The position numbers were made by a program, and so were the translations under genes. Positions 9,459 through 31,266 of a stretch of 35,246 nucleotides of DNA are shown piece after piece. The stretch comes from a virus (taxonomy: Duplodnaviria > Caudoviricetes), in the IMG/VR virus record IMGVR_UViG_3300030207_001559, positions 1-35,246 of that record. One strand, 5' to 3'. The first letter of the stretch is position 1; each line of letters begins with the position of its first letter. Below the pieces are notes generated by a model. It was given only the letters and a program-made list of their open reading frames with translations. It was not told where the DNA came from and did no database searches.

Positions 9459-9488
9459 AGTATACCCTTAAGGTTTAAGGTCCTGCAA
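9459..9488 (-). promoter_or_regulatory. Candidate sigma70-type promoter for scaffold/capsid genes
   Basis: TTGCAG (9488-9483), 18-nt spacer, TATACT (9464-9459), upstream of RBS GAGAGG. Confidence 0.45.
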
Positions 9489-12400
9489 CACCGTAGAGTT
9501 GTCTATGGTAAGCCTTGCCTGCAAGAGTTACTCCTGTATAAAAGTCCCCATACCAAAATACTAATGTTTCATCTAAGTCAGGAGTTTGCATAACAAGACG
9601 TTCTCTAAATATGCTACGTCTTTCTTCAAGTTTACTTAAGTAAGGGTATTGGGTTTTCATTTGATATTTAGTTTGACGATTACTATTTAAGTATTCTTTC
9701 CAAACAGTTTCAACTTGTTGATTAATATTTTGATAGCCTAATTCTCTTAAATTTTTACCAACATCCCAATAAGGTTTCATTTTAATTCTAGCTGCATCAT
9801 AGGCTTTTTCAAATTCTGTATCGTTTACATTTAATCTTCTAGTAAACTCATCATATAACCCATCTCCTCTAACTTCAGAGTTAACCCTAACAGATTCAAT
9901 ATACTCTTCTCTTAATCCAAAAAACATATCCCAATCAGATGCTTCAGGGTCTTCAGGTAATTCTATTGCGTAGTAACCAACTAATAACAAATCTGCTGCA
10001 CTTCTACTATCAGGAATAGAACCTGCACTGTTATATATTAAATTATAATAATTATCTCTTGTTTCATCATCAGCAGCTTGAATAGAGTTTTTAAATATTT
10101 CTGTAATTCCTAATTGAGCACCTTCATACTTTAAATACTTTTCAGACTTAGCTTGTCTCCATTCTTGAGGAGTAATGCCGTTTACTTTATCTCCACGTGC
10201 CCACCTTTTTAATTTAGAATCAGATTCTACTTGGTCATCACGTAATTGTTTTCTAATACTACTAGCAGCAATCCCTGCTTTACTTGATTGTTCAGAAGAT
10301 ATTTCAGGAAATGCTTTTTTTGTTCTTTCCCTACCTGCTCTTTCTAAACCTCCCCCACGTTCAGGGTAAAAAGATTTTTTTAATCCTTCAATAAAAGGAA
10401 TTGATACTTTGTCAGGTTCTCGTAATTCTTTTTGAAACTCTTCATATTCATCAGGAGTTAACGAGTTTCTAAACTCAGTTCTTTCAGTACGAGTCATTTC
10501 TCTGTACTCAGCAACTTTATCTTCCATTGGTCTTTTTTCTACTCCCCTTAATTCATTTAAGGTTTGTAAAGTCCAATCAGCTACATCTGTTACCATTTGA
10601 CCTGTACTTCCAAATATACTTTCGTATAAATGTTGGAATCTGTCAGGACTAGAAACTATATTGTCTAAAAATTCAATGTTTTCAAGTGGGGCTTCTTCCA
10701 TAACCCCTGCTGCTTTACGCATAACATTACTAGTTCTTCTAGTATATTGTTCTGATAATGGAGCGTCTTCATCTTCTACAATTTGAGATTGTCTCCATGT
10801 GTCGTACCCAGTTATTTGTTCACCAGCTACGTTAAAGACTTCAGGTATAGGTATTTCATTAATAGGGAATGTTGATTTCCAAACTTCCTTACCCCATGCA
10901 GCTTTATCAAACTTTGTATCAGCATCAGTAGATTCTGATAAATATGTTACTGCAGCAAACACACTATTCCATTCACGTAATTTGTGAGGTATTACTACAT
11001 ATTGTGGTTTAGGTCTTTCTGTAGCAGGGTCTAATATTAATTCTCCTGCTTCATCTCGTTTAGGAGGAAGCATAAATATTAAACTGTTATATCTAATGTA
11101 CTCAGGTATATCATAATATAAAGGAGTGCCTTCATATTCCCATAATTTATTCCAACCTTCTTGAATAGCCCAATAAGCGTATACAGCACCACCTATTGCT
11201 GCTGCTGCTTGTCTTGGACCCATAGCAGTATCAAAACCTTTACCTGTAATTCCTCTAGCTTCTCTATAGCCAAAACCTAAAGTTGCAGGAGATACAGTTA
11301 AGTTGTTGACTGCTTTAGCATATTTAACAATTTGTTCATTTACTGTACCAAATTCATACATTGGTCCATTTGGCACAGGGTCTTTAACTGGTCTTATTAC
11401 AGGATGCAAATCAATACCTAATGCTCTAAACGGAAGTTTAGTACCTTCAACTGCAGCATTTAAAAACAATATGTAATTATTCCAATTCCTAAATTGAGAG
11501 CCACCTCTAGCAAAATCTATAGTAGCTTCAATACTATTAATAGCAGCACGTTGAGCAAAGTCTTGTTCAATTAAACCAACCCCAGTTCCTCTCCAATTTT
11601 CTAATACCTCAACATCAAATTGTTCTTTAGGTAATTTCATTAAACGATTAAGTTCTGCTTTACCGTTAATTTTTATTCCATCAGAATCAGTTAATTCATT
11701 TAAATACTTTACAAAAGATTTTCTAGCTACTGCTATACGTGGAGCCGACTCAATAGCCCCACCAACTTGTGGGAAAAATTCCTTTACTTTATTTCTAATA
11801 CTATTATCTAATGCTAGATTTAATTGCTTACCACTACTTACTACGGTAGCAACATCATTATGCCCAGCTTTACTTAATTCTCTATAAATACTTTTTTGTA
11901 ATTTAGTAGAATTAATATAACCACTTCCTTCAGCCCAACCACCTAATGTTCCCATAAAGTCATTAAACCTGTCTTCTTTACCCATAATATTTTTATTAAG
12001 ACTACGAGCCATTTGTGCTAAGACCTCATCAGGTCTAGTGTCTGCTTTAAGTTGAACTGTAAACATATCTATGATTGCATTACGTACCCAAAACAAAGGG
12101 CTATATGTTGTATACACAGACCTAAACCAACCATTAGAAGCAGCTAATCTAGCTAAAGCTGCGTTATCACCTATAGCAGCTAAACCGTTTTTACCATTAA
12201 CTTCTTGCCACATTAACTCAGGTACTGGTCCACCATCCATCCCCCCAAACACTCTTCTTTTCCCATTTTCAAAAAACACAAAGTACCCAGTTTTATTATC
12301 AGGGTCAGGGATAGCTTTCTTTAAAGAACCATCTTCTTTAATAAATTCATCTGTAACTTCTTTTAATCTTTGCTTACCATCATAAATATATAAGTTAACT

Positions 12401-14658
12401 ATATTTTTAGTTTGAGTATTATTAGCAATTTTAAGTTCTGTTCTCATAAGGTTAGCTGCAAGAACTTCAGCATCTAACGGGTCACGTGCACTTAGTCGAA
12501 CATCTAAATCTTCTGACAATCTTCTAAAGCCATCATCTATAACATTAGTAGTTCCACCTAAACTAGTTCCTTTAGTTGCTTTTTCTGCATACTCAAGATA
12601 TTCAGTTGGAATATAATGAGACCAAGTTTCATTGTAATACTTAAAGTTTTCTTCACTAATAATTCCAGCTTTATAAAGACGTTCTCTTGCTTCTTCATAA
12701 ATACCGATTATAGGCTTACCATCACTATCATACCTTCGTTTATTAGCAGCATCTTTACCAACAATTCTAGCAGCAGTTTCTTCTAAGAAATCAAATTGTT
12801 CATCTGTAAAATCCCATGCTTCTTTTACTTTTGCTCGGTCTATCCAATCCCCTAATTCTTTATCAGTAACTGCTATATCCCATTGTTTAGTTTCAGGATT
12901 GTATACATTTGGATTTGTTCTAGTGTAGTCACGACCTTCTGCTGTTGCTCGTGCTGAAAGCACATCATTAACATTCTTTATTTGTAATGCTTGTAAGTAT
13001 CTGTTTAAAGCAGTACCGTTACCACCTTGTGCCAAGTATGGTTCAATAACCATTCTGTAAACATTTTTAGTACGCATAAGTGCTTGCCCAGCAGCTACAT
13101 CACGAAACCTGTGAATATTTTCAGCAACTTGAGGATTAGGTTTAGGTATACCATTAGGAGATAATTCTCCACCTGCTAATGTAGACCTTTTTGGTTGAGC
13201 AGTTTTAATTTCTCTAATTGGTTTTCCGTTAGGACCATAAATATAATCTGTCATTTGTCTAGCAGAACTAGCAGGAGCATGCCATTTATTTATAAATCTT
13301 AAATAAGAATCTGCTCTACCCATATTAGGGAATCTATTTTTAAGAGTTTTACCTAAAACATCACTTGCATCATTTCCAAACTTACTTAAGTTTTGTACAA
13401 ATGGTGCTTTAGCTATAACTTTTTCTATAGAAAAAATACCTGATATGTCAGGAATAGCAGATTTAATTGTTTCGTAAGTTCTTACAGTAAAGTTTTTATT
13501 TGTAATAGGTCTTTTAATTGGAGAATCGCTACCAGCCCTAGTCAAAGCAGGAACATAAAATTCTACAGTTTCTGTTACTTGTCTAGGAACAATTAAATCA
13601 TCAGGTGTTGTAGTTGTAGGCGTAACTATTTGAGGAGTTTCAGGTAAGTCTACAGTAGTTTGAGGAGTAATAATTTCATCAGCTTGTTGTGTAATAGGCA
13701 CTGATACGTCATCAATAACTTGCCCTCCAAATTGAGTAGACGGCATACCTGCTCCGGCAGGTAACATTACATCTTCAACTGGCACATCAAGACTTTGTGT
13801 AGTAAATGTTCTACCTCCAACTTCAGCTACTCCAGTTGCAGGGGAAACATCAGGTACAGTTCTGCGACCAACTGATTTAAACGGTGCAGTAATTGCACTA
13901 GCTAATGTTTCTTCTACAACTTCAAGTGGCTTTAATCCAAGTTCTACTCCACGCAAACCTGCTCGTAGTGCTGGGTTGTTAGCTGCCGTTGCACCAGTAC
14001 GTGCTGCTTGTGCTGCTGTTCTGACTCCTTTAGCTGGAGGAATTAAAAAGTACGGTAACTCTTCTGCTAATCCTCTAGCATAAGGAAGAGTAGGGTATAA
14101 ATCTTGCCCTATTTCCCTACGTTGTTGTTCAGTTACTTGTTGACCTGTTTCTTGTTCTATACGTTTAACTTCTGTATTAATACGTTGATTTTGTCTAGTA
14201 TTACCTTTCCAAGGTTCTTGAATATCAAGACCTTCTAGTACAGTTCCTGCTACTACTCCTATAGGATTAATATTCATAAACTGGTCAAACGCACCACCTA
14301 AAGAAAAATCTCCTTCAGGCGTTACATATTGGTCAACATTAGGAACCATTCTTCCTTCAGTAAATCTACTAATTGGTCTATACCAAGGAGATTGTTCAGT
14401 TACGCCTTCATTTAATTCCCAATTAAAAGGAATAGGTTGTATAGCTTGATTTATAGTTGGTTCAACTATACGACCATGAACAAAGTTTAACCCAGCCCCT
14501 ACACCTTGTAATGCAGGCATAACTCCGGGAATTTGAGCAATTCCACTACCTACTGCACGGGCAGCAGGAAATAAATACTCTTGGAATACAGTGGGGTCTG
14601 CTGCAGGTTCTTGAGTGTCAGGGAGATAATCCCATTGATGCCACCATGTATGGGGCAT
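9475..14658 (-). CDS. Large internal virion / DNA ejection protein with LPD38-like region
   Basis: 1727 aa; 'YYDIPEYIRYNSLIFM...YVVIPHK...EQITGYDTWRQSQIV' and 'FWVRNAIIDMF...EATIDFARGG' resemble phage large polyvalent proteins; lies between portal and scaffold. Confidence 0.65.
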   Translation of the reverse strand: MPHTWWHQWDYLPDTQEPAADPTVFQEYLFPAARAVGSGIAQIPGVMPALQGVGAGLNFVHGRIVEPTINQAIQPIPFNWELNEGVTEQSPWYRPISRFTEGRMVPNVDQYVTPEGDFSLGGAFDQFMNINPIGVVAGTVLEGLDIQEPWKGNTRQNQRINTEVKRIEQETGQQVTEQQRREIGQDLYPTLPYARGLAEELPYFLIPPAKGVRTAAQAARTGATAANNPALRAGLRGVELGLKPLEVVEETLASAITAPFKSVGRRTVPDVSPATGVAEVGGRTFTTQSLDVPVEDVMLPAGAGMPSTQFGGQVIDDVSVPITQQADEIITPQTTVDLPETPQIVTPTTTTPDDLIVPRQVTETVEFYVPALTRAGSDSPIKRPITNKNFTVRTYETIKSAIPDISGIFSIEKVIAKAPFVQNLSKFGNDASDVLGKTLKNRFPNMGRADSYLRFINKWHAPASSARQMTDYIYGPNGKPIREIKTAQPKRSTLAGGELSPNGIPKPNPQVAENIHRFRDVAAGQALMRTKNVYRMVIEPYLAQGGNGTALNRYLQALQIKNVNDVLSARATAEGRDYTRTNPNVYNPETKQWDIAVTDKELGDWIDRAKVKEAWDFTDEQFDFLEETAARIVGKDAANKRRYDSDGKPIIGIYEEARERLYKAGIISEENFKYYNETWSHYIPTEYLEYAEKATKGTSLGGTTNVIDDGFRRLSEDLDVRLSARDPLDAEVLAANLMRTELKIANNTQTKNIVNLYIYDGKQRLKEVTDEFIKEDGSLKKAIPDPDNKTGYFVFFENGKRRVFGGMDGGPVPELMWQEVNGKNGLAAIGDNAALARLAASNGWFRSVYTTYSPLFWVRNAIIDMFTVQLKADTRPDEVLAQMARSLNKNIMGKEDRFNDFMGTLGGWAEGSGYINSTKLQKSIYRELSKAGHNDVATVVSSGKQLNLALDNSIRNKVKEFFPQVGGAIESAPRIAVARKSFVKYLNELTDSDGIKINGKAELNRLMKLPKEQFDVEVLENWRGTGVGLIEQDFAQRAAINSIEATIDFARGGSQFRNWNNYILFLNAAVEGTKLPFRALGIDLHPVIRPVKDPVPNGPMYEFGTVNEQIVKYAKAVNNLTVSPATLGFGYREARGITGKGFDTAMGPRQAAAAIGGAVYAYWAIQEGWNKLWEYEGTPLYYDIPEYIRYNSLIFMLPPKRDEAGELILDPATERPKPQYVVIPHKLREWNSVFAAVTYLSESTDADTKFDKAAWGKEVWKSTFPINEIPIPEVFNVAGEQITGYDTWRQSQIVEDEDAPLSEQYTRRTSNVMRKAAGVMEEAPLENIEFLDNIVSSPDRFQHLYESIFGSTGQMVTDVADWTLQTLNELRGVEKRPMEDKVAEYREMTRTERTEFRNSLTPDEYEEFQKELREPDKVSIPFIEGLKKSFYPERGGGLERAGRERTKKAFPEISSEQSSKAGIAASSIRKQLRDDQVESDSKLKRWARGDKVNGITPQEWRQAKSEKYLKYEGAQLGITEIFKNSIQAADDETRDNYYNLIYNSAGSIPDSRSAADLLLVGYYAIELPEDPEASDWDMFFGLREEYIESVRVNSEVRGDGLYDEFTRRLNVNDTEFEKAYDAARIKMKPYWDVGKNLRELGYQNINQQVETVWKEYLNSNRQTKYQMKTQYPYLSKLEERRSIFRERLVMQTPDLDETLVFWYGDFYTGVTLAGKAYHRQLYGVAGP

Positions 14659-21889: not shown

Positions 21890-22500
21890 AATAGAAAGTA
21901 ACAAGTAACTATTTCTATTCTATTTAAATATATTTTCTAGTAATAAGTCATTAGTTAATACCCTCCTGTATAAAGAAAATAGCAACTAGTTACTTGTTAC
22001 TGTTACTAGTAACTAGATACTAAACACCTCTTTTTAGAAAAATTAAATTTCTACAGGTATACTCCCCTCCAATACACATTCCACAAGACATACCCCCTGT
22101 TACTTTAAGTTATGGCTAACCTGTACCGTAACTGTAAACAGTTACTAGGTTAGCTAGATACTATTTTTACGTGTGCGTGACGGGAAACTTCAGCAACTCT
22201 CAAAATACTAGTATCTATTTACGTGATACTACTATCATTATTATTGATGAATCGCTGTTATGCATATATTAACTTTTTATAGTGGTGTCATATGTATATA
22301 TAGGTTGTTTTATTATTACCTCATATAACTAGCTTCTAAGGTATCTATATTAGGTATCTATCTGCTAGCTATTTATTTAATCTTCAGGCACAAATTAAAT
22401 TAATTTAAGCAATTTTTGATTAATTTTCTAGGCACGACTCAGGCACGAACTAGGTGTTTTCACCTGGAAAAATTAAGGTATAATCTCTGTATCTAGTCGT
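21890..22500. other. Non-coding control region (candidate origin and/or packaging site) with iterated motifs
   Basis: About 670 bp without ORFs; clustered GTAAC/GTTAC repeats, six GTATCTA/TAGATAC copies, three AGGCAC copies, palindrome at 22115-22154. Confidence 0.45.
22457..22484 (+). promoter_or_regulatory. Candidate early promoter
   Basis: TATAAT at 22479-22484 with weak -35 (TTTTCA), followed by a 5' stem-loop (TCTAGTCG...CGACAATAGA) and RBS AAGGAG. Confidence 0.5.
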
Positions 22501-22919: not shown

Positions 22920-22948
22920 TAGACCTGAGCAAGTCTAAAAACTGCTCA
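22920..22948 (+). ncRNA. Intergenic H-type pseudoknot motif, copy 1
   Basis: TAGAC-C-TGAGCA-A-GTCTA-AAAAC-TGCTCA. Confidence 0.7.
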
Positions 22949-22981
22949 AATAAATAAACAAGTAACAAAGGAAAAAATACA

Positions 22982-23266
22982 ATGACAAACGAGCAAATCA
23001 TAAAAGAATTTTTAAATAATAAATCAGCAAAGAATCAAAACAATTCATTGACAAGCACAGGAGACCAATTATTTAGTTATAGATTTTTAATAGCAGAAAA
23101 GGCACCAACAACTACAGTAGGAGAATTTGCAACAGTAATAAATGATTTTTCAATAGGTAAAATAGAAGAAATTACAGGAATAAGGAGCATGACAACAAGA
23201 CAACACATAGGATTATTAAAAAGAACAGCACAAAATCAAGGAGAAGAAACAATAATATTAAATTAG
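22982..23266 (+). CDS. Early hypothetical protein
   Basis: 94 aa; 'LFSY..LIA...SMTTRQH' pattern seen in small phage early proteins. Confidence 0.75.
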   Translation: MTNEQIIKEFLNNKSAKNQNNSLTSTGDQLFSYRFLIAEKAPTTTVGEFATVINDFSIGKIEEITGIRSMTTRQHIGLLKRTAQNQGEETIILN

Positions 23267-23271
23267 TAGAT

Positions 23272-23300
23272 ATAACCTGAGCAAGTTTTAAAACTGCTCA
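23272..23300 (+). ncRNA. Intergenic H-type pseudoknot motif, copy 2
   Basis: ATAAC-C-TGAGCA-A-GTTTT-AAAAC-TGCTCA. Confidence 0.65.
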
Positions 23301-23330
23301 ATTAATTAAGCATTAAAGGAGAATTTAACA

Positions 23331-23738
23331 ATGAGAATGAGTTACAACAAATTTATATATAACTGGGTAAAAGCTATAAGAGATAATGATGAAATTTCTG
23401 AGCAGTATTTAAAAAGTGAACCTAAATATAAAAATTTATATATTAGTAAATATGGAGACTTAGTAGTTAACTCAGTTGATGAAAAAAATTGGTGTATAGC
23501 TGACATTTACGAGCATGAAGATTTTGAATGTGATGACTGGAAACCAAATTGTTTCACTAGTCGAGAGCCATCTATATATTTAACTAGTAAATATTTTTTA
23601 AAACATGGTGGATATTCGGATAAAGAAATAAACATAATTTTAAGTTGTCAAGAAATAGTAGAAGGAGCAGTACAAGATTTATATGGTGAATTTGTAAAAA
23701 ATAATTCATGGGAACCATTTATATCTGATATGACATAA
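23331..23738 (+). CDS. Early hypothetical protein
   Basis: 135 aa, RBS AAGGAG. Confidence 0.75.
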   Translation: MRMSYNKFIYNWVKAIRDNDEISEQYLKSEPKYKNLYISKYGDLVVNSVDEKNWCIADIYEHEDFECDDWKPNCFTSREPSIYLTSKYFLKHGGYSDKEINIILSCQEIVEGAVQDLYGEFVKNNSWEPFISDMT

Positions 23739-23743
23739 ATAAA

Positions 23744-23773
23744 ATATTCCTGAGTAAGAATATAAACTGCTCA
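23744..23773 (+). ncRNA. Intergenic H-type pseudoknot motif, copy 3
   Basis: ATATTC-C-TGAGTA-A-GAATAT-AAAC-TGCTCA. Confidence 0.7.
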
Positions 23774-23804
23774 CTAATAAATAAATTTATAAAGGATAAA
23801 AAAC

Positions 23805-24098
23805 ATGAATACAGAAAAACAAAAGCAAGTATTAGAAATGCAAGATAAAGCAGAAGAAATTGAGCAACAATTATTTGTAAATGATAAAAGTTTAAGCTAT
23901 GCAGAAGTAGCACATATTATCGAGTATGTTTTTGGATTAAAATCTGACCAAGTGAGAGATGCTATACAAGAATTAGCAGATTTTAGGAGAAAAATACCTA
24001 CTGATAGTAGATTAAATAATTCCTGTAGTTGGGTAAATTGTTTTGATGAAGCATCAAACATCCTACACTGTATGGAAACAGTAGGATTAACAGTTTGA
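23805..24098 (+). CDS. Early hypothetical protein
   Basis: 97 aa, RBS AAGGA. Confidence 0.7.
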   Translation: MNTEKQKQVLEMQDKAEEIEQQLFVNDKSLSYAEVAHIIEYVFGLKSDQVRDAIQELADFRRKIPTDSRLNNSCSWVNCFDEASNILHCMETVGLTV

Positions 24099-24120
24099 TA
24101 AATATATAAAGGAGAAAAAA

Positions 24121-24351
24121 ATGATAAATCAAAAATGTAATTGGTATCTGTTGCGACAATTTAATATAAAACATTTAGGAATGGGTGACTGGTCAATTCA
24201 GCCATTAAATAAAACGGCAACTAGAGAATTAAAACGAATAAATTCTCGTATTGATGGAGACAATGGCAGGGTATTTTTTGAAGGAAAAACATTAATTATT
24301 TTGAATGGTAGTCAATGGATTAATTTAGTTGATTATTATTCAAATTTATAA
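24121..24351 (+). CDS. Early hypothetical protein
   Basis: 76 aa, RBS AAGGAG. Confidence 0.7.
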   Translation: MINQKCNWYLLRQFNIKHLGMGDWSIQPLNKTATRELKRINSRIDGDNGRVFFEGKTLIILNGSQWINLVDYYSNL

Positions 24352-24365
24352 AGGAGAATTTAACA

Positions 24366-24593
24366 ATGGCAAAGAAACCAATATTAAGAATGCATGAGCA
24401 GATAATACCAACAGATAATAATAAATTTAAATTTAAAATAGGAGATAAATTAATAGGAGATTTAAAAGGTAATGACGCAATCGGATTTATATTAAATGTA
24501 AACAATCAATCTGTTTTCAGGTCTGATTTAAGAGACACTATTAACACAATGAGAAGCATACATTTATGTAAATTAGCTGACAGTATTGATTAA
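24366..24593 (+). CDS. Early hypothetical protein
   Basis: 75 aa, RBS AAGGAG. Confidence 0.7.
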   Translation: MAKKPILRMHEQIIPTDNNKFKFKIGDKLIGDLKGNDAIGFILNVNNQSVFRSDLRDTINTMRSIHLCKLADSID

Positions 24594-24641
24594 TATATAG
24601 ATTGGTGTTAGTGTTAACAAAAATAATAAGGAGAATATAAA

Positions 24642-24779
24642 ATGTACACAGAATTAAAAGAATCCAATTTAATAACAGATTTCCTGGATAGATATGAAAC
24701 AGTCAATTTTAATGACAGTTTCCAGGAGATAATAGAATCAGAAGAAGTAGAAATAATTAATCAAGAAATAGGAGAATAA
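24642..24779 (+). CDS. 45-aa acidic hypothetical protein
   Basis: Below cutoff: MYTELKESNLITDFLDRYETVNFNDSFQEIIESEEVEIINQEIGE; RBS AAGGAG. Confidence 0.6.
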   Translation: MYTELKESNLITDFLDRYETVNFNDSFQEIIESEEVEIINQEIGE

Positions 24780-24782
24780 ACA

Positions 24783-25076
24783 ATGATAGTTATACGACAT
24801 TTAGACAATACAAATAGCGAATGCGACCAAGAAATTTATTGTGATATTGCTTGCTTTGGTACTGTTCGATTCGGAGATTGGACAACAAATATTAAAACAG
24901 CAACATTGAAAATTGAATCTGTGTATGACGCATTAAATAAAATTGCAGAATCTGACCAATTTAATGTGTATGAGGATGAACACATCATACCTAACTCACA
25001 TTATCCAACTATTGAAGATTTTTTAAGTGAAGATTCTCAAGAATACTGTTATAGCTGTAAAGAAGAATTAAATTAA
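24783..25076 (+). CDS. Early hypothetical protein with C-terminal CxxC
   Basis: 97 aa, RBS AGGAG. Confidence 0.7.
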   Translation: MIVIRHLDNTNSECDQEIYCDIACFGTVRFGDWTTNIKTATLKIESVYDALNKIAESDQFNVYEDEHIIPNSHYPTIEDFLSEDSQEYCYSCKEELN

Positions 25077-25092
25077 TAAAGGAGTATAAAAA

Positions 25093-25251
25093 ATGATAAA
25101 TCAACAAATGAATATCAGACTAATCAAAGAACAAACAATTAAAAAAGAATATGAAAATGTAGATTATCAAGATATTACACACTCTAAAAAAAGAATTGGA
25201 GATTTTTATTATTACAAATTAACAAAGATAGTTTTTGTCCCAATAAATTAA
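25093..25251 (+). CDS. 52-aa hypothetical protein
   Basis: Below cutoff: MINQQMNIRLIKEQTIKKEYENV...; RBS AAGGAG. Confidence 0.55.
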   Translation: MINQQMNIRLIKEQTIKKEYENVDYQDITHSKKRIGDFYYYKLTKIVFVPIN

Positions 25252-25270
25252 TTAATAAAGGAGAATAAAT

Positions 25271-25299
25271 TTGAATAATAATTTAACCTAGTGTATAAT
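25271..25299 (+). promoter_or_regulatory. sigma70-type promoter
   Basis: TTGAAT, 17-nt spacer, TATAAT; followed by a GGAGT/ACTCC stem-loop (25308-25329). Confidence 0.7.
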
Positions 25300-25355
25300 T
25301 TAATATAGGAGTTGGCGTTGTTTGACTCCAACAATAATAATAAAGGAGAACAGAT

Positions 25356-25757
25356 ATGAATGTAGATATAACAAATGGAATAGATAGGAATACTTGTCAG
25401 CAATTAAGAGAATCATTGGAGGATTTATTAAAACCAATCATAGATAGTGGATTAGATTTTAAGATTGGGAATATTAAATATGACAATGTAAGTATGGATA
25501 CAAAAATAGAATTTTATATAAAGGAAGGTAAAGAAGATAAAGACAAAGACATGGCTAATCAATGGCTAGAAATTAGAGGAGCAAATTTTAGGGTAGGTGA
25601 TGTGTTTATTGCTAAAAATGAGGAATGGATTGTCTCAGGATTTAATGCAAAAGCTAAAAAGTATCCTGTAGTGATTACTAGAAAATTAAATGGAGATAGT
25701 TATAAGAATAGTGTTCAAGGAATTAATGCATATTTTGCAATACAGGAGAATAAATAA
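25356..25757 (+). CDS. Early hypothetical protein
   Basis: 133 aa, RBS AAGGAG; C-terminal 'VSGFNAKAKKYPVV' beta domain. Confidence 0.75.
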   Translation: MNVDITNGIDRNTCQQLRESLEDLLKPIIDSGLDFKIGNIKYDNVSMDTKIEFYIKEGKEDKDKDMANQWLEIRGANFRVGDVFIAKNEEWIVSGFNAKAKKYPVVITRKLNGDSYKNSVQGINAYFAIQENK

Positions 25758-25903
25758 TGACTGACAATATTGAATGCCCTGAAGGGCACATAGATACATA
25801 CACATATGACTCAACTAAAGATGGTTTAGATTATGGTTTATTACTAATGTGTAATGTTTGTGAAGATGGCTACGAAATAATTGAAAATAATAAAGGAGAA
25901 TAA
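25757..25903 (+). CDS. 48-aa Zn-ribbon-like protein
   Basis: Below cutoff: MTDNIECPEGH...LMCNVCEDGYEIIENNKGE. Confidence 0.65.
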   Translation: MTDNIECPEGHIDTYTYDSTKDGLDYGLLLMCNVCEDGYEIIENNKGE

Positions 25904-25906
25904 ATA

Positions 25907-26353
25907 ATGATGTTACAAAAACTTATAGATGGAAAAGTAGATATTAAACAATCAAGGTCAGGACAAAAGCAATTAATAGATTACTTGTATTACAAAGTAA
26001 TTGTAAATAGTGATTATAAATTTGATTGGTTACTTAGTGATATAGAAAAAGATGAAAAAGCACACAGAAGAATGGCATCTAGTGATAGAAAAATTTATGA
26101 CCTATCTATTTTATATACAGCAAAATTCTTTTCTATTCAATATATATTAATAGGTTTACAAAACCCTGATATTACATTTGATGCAAGAGACATTGTAAGT
26201 TTAAGACAAACTTATTTAACTGGTGTTTCATTGGGTGCACTTTGGGCAGAAACAATTACAAAGAACTTCCCAATGACCCCTGAAAATGAGAAATATGTAG
26301 AGTTGTTTGAACAGTTAGATTACACAGATTTTATTAAGCAAGTAGGAGAATAA
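25907..26353 (+). CDS. Early hypothetical protein
   Basis: 148 aa, RBS AAGGAG. Confidence 0.75.
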   Translation: MMLQKLIDGKVDIKQSRSGQKQLIDYLYYKVIVNSDYKFDWLLSDIEKDEKAHRRMASSDRKIYDLSILYTAKFFSIQYILIGLQNPDITFDARDIVSLRQTYLTGVSLGALWAETITKNFPMTPENEKYVELFEQLDYTDFIKQVGE

Positions 26354-26560
26354 GTGATGAATCTTAAGGAAATAAAAGCAAGTGTAGAGTCAGGTGAAAC
26401 AGTTTACTGGGCAAATACGGCGTACAGGGTCATTAAAACTGACAATGGTGGTTGGTTAATCATGTGTGATATTAATGGGCATTGTATCGGATTAACTCAC
26501 CAAGATGGAGTAACTATGAATGGAGAAGAAAAAGATTTCTTTATTAAAAAAGGAGAATAA
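26354..26560 (+). CDS. Small conserved phage hypothetical protein
   Basis: 68 aa, 'GETVYWANTAYRVIK...IGLTHQDG'. Confidence 0.7.
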   Translation: MMNLKEIKASVESGETVYWANTAYRVIKTDNGGWLIMCDINGHCIGLTHQDGVTMNGEEKDFFIKKGE

Positions 26561-26938
26561 GTGATGACTAAAAAAGAATTTGTATTAATTGCTAAAGCAT
26601 TAAAAGATGCTAGAAAAAGAGCAGACAACTCAGGAATGATAAGAGAAAAAACAAAAGATAGTGTTTTAGAAAAAGGAAAACGAGTGCCTAAAGCTATTCA
26701 AGGTAACGAAGTTTATAGTTTATGGGATAGGCATATAGATACTCAATTTGCTATCACAATGTTGATAGGAGATTTGATAGATATATTTGAATTGTCTAAT
26801 ACCTACAAAAATGATTGGAAACGATTTGACAAAGAAGCATTTTGGAAAGCAACAGACCTAGATAATGAAGAAGAAATTGAAAAGTTATGGGAGCAAACAC
26901 AATCGGAACATCCTGGATTTATTCCTGCAGTAACTTAA
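26561..26938 (+). CDS. Hypothetical protein
   Basis: 125 aa, 'MTKKEFVLIA...RFDKEAFWKA' pattern. Confidence 0.7.
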   Translation: MMTKKEFVLIAKALKDARKRADNSGMIREKTKDSVLEKGKRVPKAIQGNEVYSLWDRHIDTQFAITMLIGDLIDIFELSNTYKNDWKRFDKEAFWKATDLDNEEEIEKLWEQTQSEHPGFIPAVT

Positions 26939-26968
26939 AGAAAATATATAACTAAAAGGAGATAAGCA

Positions 26969-27139
26969 ATGAGTAATATTCAAGAACAATACAAAGAATT
27001 AAGCCAAGCAGAAATATTTTATGGTGTCAATGATGGCAGTATCGAACTTGATGGTTGGGGCTACTGTGAAGGGTGCGAATGCGAATCACCACATGTAAAA
27101 AATGACTGCTTAGTCTGTGGACAGTTAGTAAAGGAGTAA
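26969..27139 (+). CDS. 56-aa Zn-finger-like protein
   Basis: Below cutoff: ...YCEGCECESPHVKNDCLVCG...; RBS AAGGAG. Confidence 0.65.
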   Translation: MSNIQEQYKELSQAEIFYGVNDGSIELDGWGYCEGCECESPHVKNDCLVCGQLVKE

Positions 27140-27141
27140 GT

Positions 27142-27321
27142 ATGAATCAGTTTAATGCAACTAAGAAATATGAAATCCGAATAGATGCTAAAGATTTAAA
27201 CAGTCTAAATAAAATATTAGATTGGATAGAAAAAGGCATGGAACAAAAGGAGATTCCATGCCACTTAGAAATGAACTGGATAACAGAAGAGATGAACATT
27301 AAATATATAGAAGGAGAATAA
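27142..27321 (+). CDS. 59-aa hypothetical protein
   Basis: Below cutoff: MNQFNATKKYEIRIDAKDL...KYIEGE; RBS AAGGAG. Confidence 0.65.
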   Translation: MNQFNATKKYEIRIDAKDLNSLNKILDWIEKGMEQKEIPCHLEMNWITEEMNIKYIEGE

Positions 27322-27324
27322 ATA

Positions 27325-27531
27325 ATGTTATCAATATATGACAGGCTACAAATTTGGGCAATTAGAAGTCAGGGTACATTAGGTAAGCAAATGTACAACA
27401 AAATATTAAATCTAGCTTTAGAAGATATAGACAGACTAAAAGAAATTCAACTGTTCATAGACGCACTCGTGACAGTAAGCGAAGACCAAGAATTTCAAGA
27501 CGATTTTAAACAATTTATGAAAGGAGAATAA
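27325..27531 (+). CDS. Hypothetical protein
   Basis: 68 aa, RBS AAGGAG. Confidence 0.7.
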   Translation: MLSIYDRLQIWAIRSQGTLGKQMYNKILNLALEDIDRLKEIQLFIDALVTVSEDQEFQDDFKQFMKGE

Positions 27532-27534
27532 ATA

Positions 27535-27732
27535 ATGCCTTATATTAAAAGGGATAAGATAAAAAAGATTTTAGAGTGGTATCACAAGGGTTGGGAGACA
27601 GGAACAATACAAGACTTGTATGAAGATTTATATTTTTATGCTGAAGAGTATTTAAAAACATTACCAAAAGAAACTATAGATGCAGACTATGAGCAAGCAA
27701 AAGAAGAATTAAAGGAGTATTACAATGGCTAG
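27535..27732 (+). CDS. Hypothetical protein
   Basis: 65 aa, RBS AAGGAG. Confidence 0.7.
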   Translation: MPYIKRDKIKKILEWYHKGWETGTIQDLYEDLYFYAEEYLKTLPKETIDADYEQAKEELKEYYNG

Positions 27733-27988
27733 ATTATTAAAAGGAATACCAACAGAATTTGAAAACATAACTGAATTTGAAGAGCAATGCGAAGCATACG
27801 AAAAAGTAGAAGCAAGAACAACCATATGGAAATTTCCAATGGCAGATAGCTATGCATTTTATGAAGTAGTTAAAGTACAACCACTACAATTACGTTGGAT
27901 TCCATACATGGATAAATGGAAAGCACCTGAGTATGTTATTAGAGGGCTTAAAGCTAAAGACATAGTAAGAAGTATTGCAAATGTTTAA
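27725..27988 (+). CDS. Hypothetical protein
   Basis: 87 aa, 'FPMADSYAFYEV...PLQLRWIPYMD'. Confidence 0.7.
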   Translation: MARLLKGIPTEFENITEFEEQCEAYEKVEARTTIWKFPMADSYAFYEVVKVQPLQLRWIPYMDKWKAPEYVIRGLKAKDIVRSIANV

Positions 27989-28712
27989 GTTATATAACGA
28001 AAACTGTTTGGATACTTTGGCAAAAATGAATAACAATTCAGTAGATTTAGTTATTACTTCACCACCATACAATATGAATTTAAGAATAAGTAAAGGCAGA
28101 TACCATTCTAGGCAAATTGTAAAAGAAATTAGTACAAAGTATGAAAACTTTTCAGACAATTTACCAATAGATAAATTTTATTCTTTACATTCAAAAATAT
28201 TAAAAGAGTTGTTAAGGGTAAGCAATCTAGTTTTCTATAACATAGCCATAGTAACTGGTAGTAAACGAGCCTTTTTTAAAATGATTGGAGATTTTTCAGA
28301 CAACTTAAAAGACATAATTGTTTGGGATAAATTAAATGGACAACCTGCTATACAAGAACAAGTAATGAACAGAAGAACAGAATTAATACTTGTGTTTGAA
28401 AATGAGTATCCAATTAGTAGACAGTTTAAAAGTACAGGCAAATTTGAGAGAGGTACATTAGATGACCTATGGCAAATTAAAAGAGAGAGGAGTAAAGACA
28501 AATCACATGGAGCAACTTTTCCTACAGAGTTAGTAAAAAAGATATTAGAAAACTTTTCATGTGAAAACGATACAGTCTATGATGCCTTTACTGGTACAGG
28601 AACTACAGGGTTAGTTGCTAGGCAAATGAACAGACACTTTATAGGAAGTGAGATTGACCCTGATACACACAGAAATGCTTACAATAAAATCATGGAGACA
28701 ATGGCTATATAA
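27975..28712 (+). CDS. DNA amino-methyltransferase (N4-cytosine/N6-adenine, beta class)
   Basis: Motif IV 'VDLVITSPPYN' precedes 'HGATFP' and motif I 'VYDAFTGTGTT'; no cognate restriction gene adjacent. Confidence 0.9.
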   Translation: MQMFKLYNENCLDTLAKMNNNSVDLVITSPPYNMNLRISKGRYHSRQIVKEISTKYENFSDNLPIDKFYSLHSKILKELLRVSNLVFYNIAIVTGSKRAFFKMIGDFSDNLKDIIVWDKLNGQPAIQEQVMNRRTELILVFENEYPISRQFKSTGKFERGTLDDLWQIKRERSKDKSHGATFPTELVKKILENFSCENDTVYDAFTGTGTTGLVARQMNRHFIGSEIDPDTHRNAYNKIMETMAI

Positions 28713-28724
28713 GGAGTAATACAC

Positions 28725-28898
28725 ATGGGTAGACGAGACGTAACAGACCAAGATGCAATCTTAGAGAAATCATATGAAGATTTATATGAAGAGTTAGGCA
28801 GAGAACCTACAGCTGTAGAGATGCAGAGAAAACAGAGTGGGTTAACAGAAGATTTATGGGAACAATTTAATATGGGTAAAGGAGTAGAAGAACAATGA
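28725..28898 (+). CDS. 57-aa protein with sigma70 region 3-like motif
   Basis: Below cutoff: MGRRDVTDQDAILEKSYEDLYEELGREPTAVEMQRKQSGLTEDLWEQFNMGKGVEEQ; RBS AAGGAG. Confidence 0.6.
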   Translation: MGRRDVTDQDAILEKSYEDLYEELGREPTAVEMQRKQSGLTEDLWEQFNMGKGVEEQ

Positions 28899-29248
28899 CT
28901 GATGAAAAGGTATTAACAGTACATTATCCTGTGCTTAACTCAGACATATTAAACTCAGGTCATGTTATGTGGGAAGAAGATGTTTGGTACTGCGAACCTT
29001 GCGAACAAGAAGTTGTAGGAGAACCTAACATATATGAAGACCAAGAACTTTGTGGGGGCTGTTATGAAGATATTTTGTATGTAAAAGGCATAGCAGTCTA
29101 TTGCGATATACATGAAGCGTGGATTGTTAGTGATGCATTTGATGCTAATACAGGTGGGTATGTGTGTGACGATTGTTATGAACACCTAACTGCTAGATGG
29201 ACAACCAAAGATGTAGAGTTGTTTCAGCAACGAGGACATGATGTTTAA
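28895..29248 (+). CDS. Acidic multi-CxxC zinc-finger protein
   Basis: CEPC, CGGC, CDIH and CDDC motifs. Confidence 0.7.
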   Translation: MTDEKVLTVHYPVLNSDILNSGHVMWEEDVWYCEPCEQEVVGEPNIYEDQELCGGCYEDILYVKGIAVYCDIHEAWIVSDAFDANTGGYVCDDCYEHLTARWTTKDVELFQQRGHDV

Positions 29249-29304
29249 TTTTAATTGGCTTAACTTAGTAGAGATAAAAGAAATAGTAATAACAAGGAGT
29301 AAAA

Positions 29305-29478
29305 ATGGGCAAGATAAAAAATGTATTTATAGACCGAGAAGGAATATGGGTAGAAAGCGACCTACTAGATGAACACTTCTTTGACCAAGAACCTGACTAT
29401 GTTACAGAACAAGAGTACGAAGAGTGGAAAGAACATATAAATACTATGGAAAACGACCCTGATTTATTGAAAGAATAA
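29305..29478 (+). CDS. 57-aa acidic hypothetical protein
   Basis: Below cutoff: MGKIKNVFIDREGIWVESDLLDEHFFDQEPDYVTEQEYEEW...; RBS AAGGAG. Confidence 0.65.
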   Translation: MGKIKNVFIDREGIWVESDLLDEHFFDQEPDYVTEQEYEEWKEHINTMENDPDLLKE

Positions 29479-29486
29479 TAAAACAC

Positions 29487-29514
29487 TTGACTAAAGTTGA
29501 GGTTGTTGTAGAAT
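29487..29514 (+). promoter_or_regulatory. sigma70-type promoter for the replication/recombination module
   Basis: TTGACT, 16-nt spacer, TAGAAT. Confidence 0.6.
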
Positions 29515-29521
29515 CAAAACT

Positions 29522-29598
29522 CTAGTAACTAGTAACTAACAACTTATTTCTTATATTAAATTAAAAAAATAGTAACTAGTTACTAGTAACAGTAACAA
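29522..29598. repeat. GTAAC iteron cluster flanking an AT-rich core
   Basis: CTAGTAACTAGTAACTAAC, ~30 bp of A/T-rich sequence, then TAGTAACTAGTTACTAGTAACAGTAACAA. Confidence 0.7.
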
Positions 29599-29613
29599 AC
29601 AAAAGGAGAAGAA

Positions 29614-29823
29614 ATGGATTTTGAAAGATTAGAGATTAAGTGTAGTAAGTGTGACCACACTACTGAGTTGATGGGATTAGTAGAATCAGCCCATAAACTT
29701 AAGGTACACCCTGAATCATTAAGGAGATTTGTCAGGTATGGTCAGGTTAATTCTATGGCTATAGAGCGTGGCAGATACTTTACTGAAGCAGATTTAGAAG
29801 CATATATAAATGAAGGAGAATAA
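29614..29823 (+). CDS. Excisionase/MerR-like HTH DNA-binding protein with N-terminal CxxC
   Basis: 'LVESAHKLKVHPESLRRFVRYGQV...GRYFTEADLEAYI' (HTH_17-like). Confidence 0.75.
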   Translation: MDFERLEIKCSKCDHTTELMGLVESAHKLKVHPESLRRFVRYGQVNSMAIERGRYFTEADLEAYINEGE

Positions 29824-30417
29824 ATGACATTACAATCAGATACCCCAAGAACCGAACTTATAGAAGTAATTAGCGTACAGCCTGCTATGTCGAGAGATGG
29901 AATGACACCACAATATATAGTGGGATATACATGGCAATACAGCCAATACCCGTCTAACTTTTACATTACTCAATCAGAAGCACCTGATGTAATTGCTAAC
30001 TTTACTGGTAAGTTTGAAGCAGTTGTAAAGGTAAGGCAACAGTGGTTAAAGAAGAACAAAGATGGTAGCTACAAGACAGGAGACAAGATGTATGACTATC
30101 AGTGGGAAGTATTGGCATGGGAAAGTTCAGATACGCCTGTATCAGCCCCACCTGTTGCTGAACCCTCACCTACTATAGAGCAATCTTTAGGTGTAGCCCC
30201 TGCACCACAGGCTCGACCAACTGATGAGAACCAAATGAGAATCATGAGACAGTCAGCACTTAAATGTGCATCATGGTTATCTGTTCCAACTGTAGAAAGT
30301 ATGGGAATAGAAACATCAGCTAATAAAAGCATAGAGATTGCTGAAAAGTTTATGGAGTACTTTATAACTGGGCAAGTGCCTAGTGAGTTAGATGAATTAT
30401 TAGAGGAGATAGAATAA
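29824..30417 (+). CDS. Putative ssDNA-binding / recombination-associated protein
   Basis: Beta-rich N-terminus, Pro-rich linker, 'IMRQSALKCA' helix, acidic tail; first gene after the HTH gene in the replication module. Confidence 0.4.
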   Translation: MTLQSDTPRTELIEVISVQPAMSRDGMTPQYIVGYTWQYSQYPSNFYITQSEAPDVIANFTGKFEAVVKVRQQWLKKNKDGSYKTGDKMYDYQWEVLAWESSDTPVSAPPVAEPSPTIEQSLGVAPAPQARPTDENQMRIMRQSALKCASWLSVPTVESMGIETSANKSIEIAEKFMEYFITGQVPSELDELLEEIE

Positions 30418-30635
30418 TGAAGATTACTCTTGAGTTAAATACAGAGCAGTACATAAGTTTAATGAGTTTAACTAGTCCAATAAAAGGAGACACAGGTAAG
30501 TATTTATCTAAACCAATAACTTCTAAAACTGCTCCAATAATAGAAGAAATTAACAAACAACTTTTAAATCAATACAACAAACATGTAGAAGAAATAAATA
30601 AGGAGATAGAGGAGAATGAAACTGCGAACACGTGA
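30417..30635 (+). CDS. Hypothetical protein
   Basis: 72 aa, TAATG-coupled. Confidence 0.65.
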   Translation: MKITLELNTEQYISLMSLTSPIKGDTGKYLSKPITSKTAPIIEEINKQLLNQYNKHVEEINKEIEENETANT

Positions 30636-30936
30636 TGGAAGAGTTGTCGGAGATTTAGACGGCAACGTAGCAATCATTAAAAAGAGTGAAAAGAAACACA
30701 AACTAATGAGACCTGAAGCGTGGTGCTTTGATATTGAACTAATAAATAGCATTGTTGAAAACGGTGCTACTACTATTAGAGTAGAAACTACAGATACTGG
30801 GAAGAAATTCCTGGTGTCTGTGGAGTTCTTTGTTGACAAAGCATTTAAACTAGATAGAGGGTACAACAAACAATTAGGATTACCAATAGTGTACTGGGAT
30901 ACAGGAGAGCCTGCAGAACAGTTAAGTCTATTATAG
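30616..30936 (+). CDS. Hypothetical protein
   Basis: 106 aa, RBS GAGGAG; ends in QLSLL, a beta-clamp-binding-like motif. Confidence 0.7.
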   Translation: MKLRTRDGRVVGDLDGNVAIIKKSEKKHKLMRPEAWCFDIELINSIVENGATTIRVETTDTGKKFLVSVEFFVDKAFKLDRGYNKQLGLPIVYWDTGEPAEQLSLL

Positions 30937-30943
30937 TTAAACC

Positions 30944-31231
30944 TAGCTACAAGGGTTTGAGTAAACCATCAGTCGAAGCAACAAGTTCTTCACGCAAACG
31001 CTAAAGGTTTTTTCTGAATTATTTTCCTTGTTTGCGAATAGTCAACATTGTGTAACATCTAGATTTGAATTAACTTTCATTTGTTACGACTTAAAAGCAG
31101 CAGAGTTGCGGCACTGAAACTTACTAACTTTAGCGGGTTGGAGTAAGTTTAGAAACAGTGTACTGACTGCATCCTTTCAGAGCCCGATACTCTTACGATT
31201 TTGTTGGTTATAAATACAGTAAGTGTAGCTA
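30944..31231 (+). ncRNA. Large (~290 nt) multi-helix structured RNA candidate
   Basis: Ends pair (TAGCTACA/TGTAGCTA) and enclose many helices; fills an ORF-free gap in an otherwise packed operon. Strand inferred from context. Confidence 0.65.
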
Positions 31232-31238
31232 TAAAAAT

Positions 31239-31266
31239 TGACCTGAGTATGTCATTAAACTACTCA
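31239..31266 (+). ncRNA. Intergenic H-type pseudoknot motif, copy 4
   Basis: TGAC-C-TGAGTA-T-GTCA-TTAAAC-TACTCA. Confidence 0.7.

What the first reader, a model, noticed from the sequence alone, without database searches (positions are those of the whole stretch)
22920..31266. Four dispersed copies of a ~29-nt H-type pseudoknot with compensatory changes in both stems
Seen: consensus [S1]-C-TGAGYA-W-[S1']-(linker ending AAAC)-TRCTCA at 22920, 23272, 23744 and 31239. Stem 1 changes sequence but keeps pairing (TAGAC/GTCTA; AAC/GTT; ATATTC/GAATAT; TGAC/GTCA). Stem 2 goes TGAGCA/TGCTCA, then TGAGTA/TGCTCA (G-U wobble), then TGAGTA/TACTCA (compensated). The bridging C and AAAC are invariant. Each copy starts 4-7 nt after a stop codon (or after the closing stem of the large RNA) and lies ahead of an A-rich leader and SD. 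Inference: the wobble points to function as plus-strand RNA rather than a DNA operator. Candidates are an exonuclease-blocking or processing element that cuts the early polycistron into stable units, a protein-binding translational control site, or a very small ribozyme. I cannot assign it to a named family.
Basis: partly seen in the sequence, partly recalled or inferred. Interest (0 to 1): 0.85.

Follow-up and report, generated by a model that had tools for sequence, protein, structure and literature searches.

The report
Phage pseudoknot capping RNA 3' ends
Four spacers in this phage carry a 28-base sequence predicted to fold into a small RNA knot that recurs in thousands of other phage contigs, resembles the core of a plant-virus nuclease-blocking RNA, and sits just after stop codons and, in a minority of copies, just before ribozyme or tRNA cut sites, so it likely shields the tail end of each gene's message once a long transcript is cut.

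Summary
In detail: four copies, none in 100 shuffles. The motif is very widespread (about 5,800 IMG/VR stretches, estimated), and both stems covary when left free in the search. One correction: the outer U-A pair of stem 2 is not a conserved pair. No Rfam family matches at its cut-off. The core matches the plant-virus coremin xrRNA, but the second hairpin and loop G that coremin needs are missing. Context gives a direction. Copies pile up 9-11 nt after stop codons. tRNAs start just 3' of the knot (25 vs 0 on the 5' side, 360 copies). Type III hammerhead cut sites are predicted 4-20 nt 3' of it (36 of 46 vs 0 of 18). Before some head-scaffold genes it stands where relatives have a terminator-like hairpin. 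Best reading (0.55): a non-terminating 3' cap against 3'-to-5' exonucleases; no RNA-end or bench data test it. A few promoter-proximal copies argue against it. The scan found this motif before on other DNA (e1-7981443, e1-6023443, e1-5780518; possibly e1-5840385) and linked it to the 5'-to-3'-blocking coremin; their few visible lines do not mention this 3' polarity.

The parts
22920..22948 (+). Pseudoknot copy 1 (S1 5 bp; loop C 22925), 9 nt from stop of the first early ORF to loop C
23274..23300 (+). Pseudoknot copy 2 (S1 3 bp contiguous; loop C 23277), 10 nt from stop; a second stop codon follows the first directly
23744..23773 (+). Pseudoknot copy 3 (S1 6 bp; G-U wobble in S2; loop C 23750), 11 nt from stop
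31239..31266 (+). Pseudoknot copy 4 (S1 4 bp; compensated S2; loop C 31243), 7 nt after the closing stem of a non-coding segment
22553..22915 (+). Early ORF, 120 aa, no confident family; upstream unit of copy 1
22982..23266 (+). Early ORF, 94 aa, no family; upstream unit of copy 2
23331..23738 (+). Early ORF, 135 aa, no family; upstream unit of copy 3
22949..22981 (+). 33-nt A-rich unstructured spacer with SD; like the 30-, 31- and 19-nt spacers after copies 2-4, the inferred place of an endonuclease cut
   Evidence: (MFE 0.0 for all four); the cut is inference
22457..22484 (+). Sigma-70-like promoter candidate ahead of the early genes (10 of 12 matches; such matches are no commoner here than in shuffles)
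30944..31231 (+). About 290-nt non-coding segment with a predicted closing stem; its 3' hairpin is conserved in two related phages that also carry the knot right after it

Best explanation
The four copies are predicted to fold into a compact 28-nt RNA pseudoknot that likely works as a non-terminating 3' cap: after the long early transcript is likely cut in the unstructured spacer just downstream, the knot would stop 3'-to-5' exonucleases and keep the upstream message or non-coding RNA intact. Shown by comparison: the two covarying stems; conserved loop C-U, A and AAAC; position just outside the inferred footprint of a terminating ribosome; tRNA starts and hammerhead cut sites 3' of it and not 5'. 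Inferred: that it folds in the cell; base triples like those proposed for coremin; a cut in the A-rich spacers of this phage by a host single-strand endonuclease (RNase E or Y type); the exonuclease block itself. In other phages the cut is predicted to come from a type III hammerhead or RNase P, leaving stop codon, 5-6 nt, knot and a 4-12 nt tail.
For: Polarity 1: tRNA begins within 60 nt 3' of the knot in 25 of 360 unique copies (23 within 12 nt) and ends within 60 nt 5' of it in 0; 12 vs 0 in 132 metagenome copies. Polarity 2: whole-collection scans for a hammerhead core 3' (52 stretches) or 5' (28 stretches) of the knot give 36 of 46 vs 0 of 18 unique rows with a full type III fold, cut 4-20 nt after the knot, 23 at 4-5 nt; Rfam Hammerhead_3 matches next to the knot in 8 of 20 loci tested; in unselected sets 5 vs 0 of 360 and 1 vs 0 of 132. 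41 of 42 copies from the hammerhead scan follow an ORF, 29 at 8-13 nt. Polarity 3: ahead of GP20-b leaders of head-scaffold genes, 4 of 8 matches (2 genomes, one lineage) have a variant knot before the U-tract where the other 4 have a terminator-like hairpin (read by eye; PF06810 confirmed for L964, L518, L526); 7 or more T in the 10 nt after S2 in 44 of 488 copies vs 5, 3 and 1 in control windows. Polarity 4: 7 of 122 genome rows end a unit that faces a convergent ORF. Stop to loop C: 37 at 9, 21 at 10, 13 at 11, 2 at 8, 2 at 3 of 178. It occurs in genomes without RNase J over the cut-off (4 of 10).
Against: No RNA-end or bench data. In 11 of 360 copies a promoter-like -10 box ends within 13 nt of S1 (8 in the nearest 7-nt bin vs 0-4 in the others); in L118/L119/L238, L364 and L038 the knot would start the transcript. 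L516 and L486 carry it 3' of a hairpin and T-rich stretch, where a cap is redundant. Its core is that of a proven 5'-to-3' blocker. The counts are not independent events: 16 of 25 and 11 of 12 tRNAs are tRNA-Asp, probably of related phages, and hammerhead cassettes come in families. The 3' hammerhead pattern was narrower than the 5' one. The window itself has no tRNA and no Rfam ribozyme match, so the cut here is inferred. The RNase J result rests on MAGs of unknown completeness.
Confidence: 0.55

Rival explanations
1. 5' guard: like coremin, the knot stalls a 5'-to-3' exoribonuclease (RNase J) or RNase E scanning and stabilises the downstream cistron.
For: Same closing C-G pair, first-loop pyrimidine, A-D loop end, 6 nt to AAAC and U-R-C as coremin (PMC6546385, PMC10520033); longer linkers are commoner than shorter ones, as in coremin mutants. 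Promoter-proximal copies and copies after a hairpin. It precedes scaffold genes. RNase J over the cut-off in 6 of 10 carrier genomes.
Against: hp2, needed for Xrn1 resistance, is not enriched (56 vs 64.9 expected of 222; none in the four window copies). Loop position 2 is U, not G (G in 1 of 119). A hammerhead or RNase P cut 4-12 nt downstream leaves almost nothing to guard. No tRNA-knot-mRNA arrangement in 360 plus 132 copies.
Confidence: 0.15
2. Ribosome-acting element: the knot lodges at the mRNA entry of the terminating ribosome and holds it or stops post-termination sliding and re-initiation.
For: Sharp peak 9-11 nt after stops, S1 starting 5-6 nt after the stop; short SD-led ORFs also peak at 9-12 (8 of 17) while bare stop triplets are flat. 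Coremin blocks scanning ribosomes and stimulates frameshifting in vitro.
Against: The distance has a long tail, and 98 of 368 copies have no long ORF ending within 59 nt; copy 4 follows a non-coding segment. A floor plus compaction explains the peak. Readthrough is unlikely: mostly TAA (52 of 84), 9 of 84 with an immediate second stop.
Confidence: 0.12
3. Pseudoknot-type intrinsic terminator or pause: S2 plays the part of the terminator hairpin next to a U-tract.
For: U-tract directly after S2 in 44 of 488 copies; same position as terminator-like hairpins before GP20-b leaders; convergent gene ends.
Against: About nine in ten copies, including all four in the window, lack a U-tract, and tRNAs, hammerheads or genes follow with no promoter enrichment between.
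Confidence: 0.08
4. Folding insulator or protein-binding site (for example ribosomal protein S1 or a phage protein) that keeps upstream RNA from mispairing with the next tRNA, ribozyme or ribosome-binding site.
For: Unstructured, G-poor stretch right after it; hammerhead stem III often begins at the knot's last base. S1 binding to pseudoknots is recalled, not from a call.
Against: A plain hairpin would insulate; strict conservation of unpaired C, U and AAAC across phages found in genomes of many phyla points to a specific fold, and no linked protein gene was seen (not searched systematically).
Confidence: 0.06
5. A very small self-cleaving ribozyme, or a DNA operator with 11-bp spacing.
For: Occurs where phage ribozymes occur (PMC3088659 passages); the spacing between the S2 arms is fixed in 100 of 138 hits.
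Against: Redundant next to hammerheads; no Rfam ribozyme match. An operator explains neither S1 covariation, G-U pairs (U-G 21 of 105 at one S2 pair), nor the strand-specific stop floor (no like peak on the other strand).
Confidence: 0.04

Closest known systems
Coremin motif (xrRNA-C) of BNYVV and other eukaryotic RNA viruses, with its 6-8-nt-loop and Watson-Crick variants (PMC6546385, PMC10520033, PMC10321173)
   Same: 3-4 bp first stem closed by C-G, pyrimidine at loop start, A then A/U at loop end, 6 nt to AAAC, then U-R-C; proposed H-type pseudoknot; the RnHV2 heptaloop is this loop minus one U; intergenic or UTR position.
   Different: 8-nt loop with U, not G, at position 2; 4-5 bp covarying Watson-Crick S2; no second hairpin; DNA phages and prophages; context points to protection of upstream, not downstream, RNA.
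GP20-b RNA motif (Rfam RF03003)
   Same: Lies before head-scaffold genes of Firmicutes phages; its first module can be drawn as a small pseudoknot of similar size; L518 and L524 match it at 24-25 bits.
   Different: Below the 36.2-bit cut-off; window copies do not match; true GP20-b matches lie 3' of the U-tract while this knot lies 5' of it, and both occur in one leader.
3' stabilisers of upstream mRNA: intrinsic terminator hairpins and E. coli REP stem-loops (recalled)
   Same: Directly after stop codons, dispersed, inferred barrier to 3'-to-5' exonucleases, sets differential stability in operons.
   Different: A 28-nt pseudoknot with conserved tertiary letters, mostly without a U-tract, coupled to hammerheads and tRNAs.
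Phage T2/T4 gene 32 operator pseudoknot and luteoviral frameshift pseudoknots (gene 32 recalled; luteoviral from PMC10321173)
   Same: H-type with a very short first loop and an A-rich last loop.
   Different: Not tied to one gene, not in coding frames (8 of 99 copies inside a long same-strand open frame), no readthrough signature.

Membership tests
Coremin (xrRNA-C) | Short hp1 closed by C-G | tested here: met
   C-G in 95 of 97 where the pair was free, G-C in 2
Coremin (xrRNA-C) | Spacer: 6 nt from loop to AAAC, then U-A-C | tested here: met
   Same spacing; AAAC in 104 of 108 (upper bound); U-G-C is commoner than U-A-C
Coremin (xrRNA-C) | Loop Y-G...A-D | tested here: not met
   Y, A and D are met; position 2 is U in 115 of 119 and G in 1
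Coremin (xrRNA-C) | Second hairpin directly after the spacer | tested here: not met
   56 observed vs 64.9 expected in 222; MFE 0.0 after all four window copies
Coremin (xrRNA-C) | Stalls Xrn1 at its 5' side | not testable with these tools
   needs an in vitro assay
H-type pseudoknot | Two interlocked stems, both covarying | tested here: met
   3 of 4 S1 pairs and 4 of 6 S2 pairs with changes on both sides; 91% of cells paired; slid controls 23-37%; one more inner S2 pair covaries when freed
GP20-b (RF03003) | Score above 36.2 bits | tested here: not met
   24.0 and 25.4 bits for 2 of 20 loci; no hit for window copies
Any Rfam 15 family | Match at gathering score on the motif | tested here: not met
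   window and 60 loci
Intrinsic terminator | Stem followed by a U-tract | tested here: not met
   absent in the four window copies; present in 44 of 488 copies elsewhere
Stop-codon readthrough pseudoknot | Leaky stop with a conserved open frame behind it | tested here: not met
   TAA 52, TAG 25, TGA 7; 9 of 84 with an immediate second stop, many others closing within 8 codons
Self-cleaving ribozyme | Site-specific self-cleavage | not testable with these tools
   needs an in vitro assay

The most novel reading that the evidence does not exclude
The coremin fold is a shared module of DNA phages and eukaryotic RNA viruses that comes in two polarities: a tetraloop form with a second hairpin guarding 5' ends (also present in DNA phages, 3' of a U-tract), and this octaloop form capping, and with a U-tract perhaps terminating, 3' ends. 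Together with hammerheads and tRNAs they form a general protein-free kit that cuts phage polycistrons into separately stabilised units.
Probability: 0.3. Interest if true: 0.9.

Novelty: new variant of a known kind. Interest (0 to 1): 0.75.

Why it matters
It would be one of the commonest uncatalogued RNA motifs of phages (estimates: about 5,800 IMG/VR, 11,000 metagenome and 570 GTDB stretches). It offers an answer to what protects the upstream piece when phage hammerheads or RNase P cut a transcript, a question left open in PMC3088659. It links a plant-virus xrRNA whose structure the 2023 papers call unsolved to a natural Watson-Crick-stabilised relative with hundreds of covarying examples. 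Cultured carriers exist (Synechococcus phage S-EIVl with five copies, Arthrobacter phage Amigo, Mycobacterium phage Labelle, Lactobacillus phage phig1e), so it can be tested now. A 28-nt non-terminating cap would also be a useful part for synthetic operons.

Tried and rejected
Rfam: no family for the motif; ARAGORN finds nothing in the window. Literature searches for a phage occurrence gave none; the library lacks most subscription papers, and the supplement of PMC5737381, which holds the 224 motif descriptions including phage motifs, could not be read, so a prior description there is not excluded. The Minerva preprint passages do not describe it. Ten model phages (P-SSP7, Syn5, Syn9, S-PM2, crAss001, SPP1, SPO1, AR9, T4, phiKZ) have no copy with both stems (searches used a pattern one base too long and were discarded), so their published end maps could not be used. 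Klebsiella phage BLAST hits were chance. RNA data: one metatranscriptome run holds contigs of close relatives but none over the four copies, and contigs cannot show ends. Contig ends in the metagenome scan show no bias (16 within 300 nt on each side). No BLAST relative of the 290-nt segment among cultured phages beyond the knot itself and one 30-nt coding hit. My first hammerhead caller was too strict (24 of 45) and was replaced by a relaxed one applied to both sides. Dropped rows: duplicates throughout; copies with S1 under 3 bp or S2 under 4 bp (S1 only); loci selected for hammerhead cores were left out; four distances of -4 are the TGA inside the motif.
Full report
1. Observation. The pattern matches four times in the window, at loop C 22925, 23277, 23750 and 31243, and never in 100 shuffles. 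The window is a whole 35,246-base virus record with capsid and terminase genes on the minus strand and small ORFs, a methyltransferase, a helicase-like AAA protein and a RusA-like resolvase on the plus strand. Copies 1-3 follow the first three plus-strand ORFs, with 9, 10 and 11 nt between stop and loop C; 30-33 nt A-rich spacers with no predicted structure follow. Copy 4 follows a 290-nt non-coding segment with a predicted closing stem (z -0.88, so weak alone). The two related phages found with the helicase both carry the knot at the matching place, after a similar hairpin.

2. Spread. The IMG/VR scan estimated about 5,800 stretches from 2 of 64 parts and returned 132 loci; the metagenome scan about 11,000 from 1 of 64; GTDB about 570 from 15 of 64, in genomes labelled Saccharibacteria, lactobacilli, clostridia, cyanobacteria, Bacteroidota, Proteobacteria and others, many on small contigs of MAGs. 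Cultured carriers: S-EIVl (five matches), S-RIM4, crAss-like cr7_1, Amigo, Labelle, ParKuw1, Vibrio phage D456 and phig1e. Ten model phages lack it.

3. Structure. S1 was not in the first pattern, yet 97 of 97 unique hits with the 24-nt core have 3 or more S1 pairs; 74 have 4 or more against a shuffle mean of 8.4 (maximum 17); of the 35 hits with other lengths 23 have S1. With parts of S2 freed (analysed): A-U 95 and G-C 20 of 119; G-C 69, A-U 26, G-U 7 of 119; G-C 91, A-U 8, U-A 3 of 105; C-G 62, U-G 21, U-A 16 of 105; the last pair is A-U in 97 of 105. The outer U is conserved but its partner is not. Loop C is kept in 107 and AAAC in 104 of 108 (loci from scans that fixed these letters are mixed with those, so these are upper bounds). 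On 119 distinct aligned copies 91% of cells pair, and the covariation score is 0.466 against 0.140, reached by 0 of 500 shuffles; slid controls pair 23-37% (three S2 pairs and one S1 pair were fixed by the pattern for all but the window copies). Model: S1 3-4 bp, loop 1 C-U, S2 4-5 bp, one unpaired A/U, linker ending AAAC.

4. It acts on RNA. Among 178 of 222 copies with an upstream ORF, the stop-to-loop-C distance is 9 in 37, 10 in 21, 11 in 13, 8 in 2 and 3 in 2, with a long tail; the opposite strand shows no such peak. The metagenome set repeats this (3, 15, 15 at 8, 9, 10 of 102). S1 thus starts 5-6 nt after the stop, about where mRNA leaves the entry channel of a ribosome with the stop in its A site (recalled), so the knot sits as close as it can without being unwound (inference). 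Readthrough is not supported.

5. Direction. tRNAs start within 60 nt 3' of the knot in 25 of 360 copies, 23 within 12 nt, and none end within 60 nt 5' of it; 12 versus 0 in 132 further copies. Most are tRNA-Asp, probably of related phages, but eight amino-acid classes occur. Scans for a hammerhead core gave 52 stretches on the 3' side and 28 on the 5' side; 36 of 46 and 0 of 18 unique rows fold as type III hammerheads, with the cut 4-20 nt after the knot, 23 at 4-5 nt. Rfam supports 8 adjacent hammerheads in 20 loci tested, one above its cut-off; a ninth match lies about 180 nt 5' of the knot in L638. 41 of 42 copies from this scan follow an ORF, 29 at 8-13 nt. After such a cut the upstream RNA would end in stop, spacer, knot and a few bases, a tail shorter than RNase R is recalled to need. 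Before head-scaffold genes, 4 of 8 GP20-b matches from 151 genomes searched have a variant knot, lacking the last S2 pair, 5' of the U-tract, where the other four have a hairpin (by eye; one lineage). A T-rich run follows S2 in 44 of 488 copies against 5, 3 and 1 in control windows. Seven of 122 genome rows end a unit facing a convergent ORF.

6. Against. Eleven of 360 copies have a promoter-like box ending within 13 nt of S1, convincingly in three groups (L118/L119/L238, L364, L038); L118, L119 and L038 also follow an ORF at 20-26 nt. L516 and L486 place the knot after a hairpin and T-rich stretch. RNase J is over the cut-off in 6 of 10 carrier genomes and not in 4 (MAGs). Short SD-led ORFs also end 9-12 nt before the knot (8 of 17), which fits both the cap and a ribosome-directed role. 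No RNA ends could be observed.

7. Mechanism, with odds. 3' cap of the upstream unit 0.55; 5' guard 0.15; action on the terminating ribosome 0.12; pseudoknot terminator or pause 0.08; insulator or protein site 0.06; ribozyme or DNA operator 0.04. A two-way barrier would merge the first two. In this phage the cut in the A-rich spacers is inferred, not seen.

8. Comparison. The coremin lead came from earlier finding e1-7981443; I tested it. From PMC6546385 (passages), PMC10520033 (parts 1-3 of 6) and PMC10321173 (parts 1-4 of 6), coremin needs a pyrimidine-purine closing pair, a Y-G...A-D loop, the AAACUAC spacer and a second hairpin, and the passages I read name no phage. The knot meets the closing pair, spacing and spacer, but has U for G in the loop and no second hairpin. 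So it is built like coremin but is not a member. The canonical tetraloop form also turned up in about 580 viral stretches; 56 of 69 unique hits have S1 of 3 or more pairs, and 27 of the 37 outside long ORFs have a hairpin directly after. In 23 loci picked by eye as DNA-phage-like and closely related, it lies 3' of a hairpin and U-tract (mean 7.2 T before, 0.6 after), the mirror image of 18 octaloop rows picked by eye (4.7 before, 6.1 after); the ORF behind the one tetraloop locus tested had no Pfam hit in its first 71 residues. GP20-b is a neighbour, not the same element. PMC3088659 (passages) reports hammerheads flanking phage genes with unknown purpose. PMC5737381 was seen as passages only and its supplement was closed; PMC3997798 and the Minerva preprint as passages, with nothing on this motif. 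REP, gene 32, S1 and RNase R statements are recalled.

9. Novelty and score. Not in Rfam 15 and not found in ten literature searches. The scan met it before on other genomes. New variant of a known kind; interest 0.75, because it is very common, well supported as a structure, linked to an RNA-virus element, and now has a directional, testable function.

Noticed in passing
L847, L850, L852, L857, L859, L883, L938 and others: Canonical tetraloop coremin in 16-60 kb DNA-phage-like contigs, after a terminator-like hairpin and U-tract and before repeated small GAGACAC hairpins and a scaffold-like ORF.
   Followed up: partly
window 30944-31231; L685 about 1965-2165; L686 about 9470-9610: Non-coding segment ahead of the helicase region whose 3' hairpin covaries in three related phages; no Rfam match.
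   Followed up: partly
window 21970-22022 and 29525-29598: Clusters of palindromic GTTACTAGTAAC-type repeats, inverted relative to each other; possible origins or operators.
   Followed up: no
L964, L965, L969, L970: The first module of Rfam GP20-b can itself be drawn as a small pseudoknot; a variant of the knot lies upstream of it.
   Followed up: partly
L589 (crAss-like cr7_1 20762), L289, L315, L318: Knot followed after 3-4 nt by what looks by eye like a tmRNA 5' end; in L589 a tRNA-like 3' end lies about 45 nt upstream, an arrangement not counted.
   Followed up: no
L462, L466, L479, L489, L530, L536, L540: In Saccharibacteria and related genomes the knot follows small ORFs of a recurring cassette that faces a 227-271 aa convergent ORF; looks like an integrated mobile element.
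   Followed up: partly
L593 (cr7_1 36873 and 36915): Two knots in tandem 42 nt apart before the primase gene; the first has a G-C closing pair.
   Followed up: no
L005, L333, L087, L260, L369, L370, L443: Knot followed by recurring unclassified hairpin families.
   Followed up: no
L522, L539: In Weissella the knot lies 30-33 nt before an integrase-like ORF with no same-strand ORF upstream.
   Followed up: no
window 9475-14658: 1727-aa protein with an LPD38 domain.
   Followed up: no
window 27926-27948: Half copy (5' half of the knot, no S2 partner) inside a coding region; within chance.
   Followed up: yes
L938 56-152: Skipping-rope RNA (RF02924) above its cut-off, about 150 nt upstream of a tetraloop coremin.
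   Followed up: no
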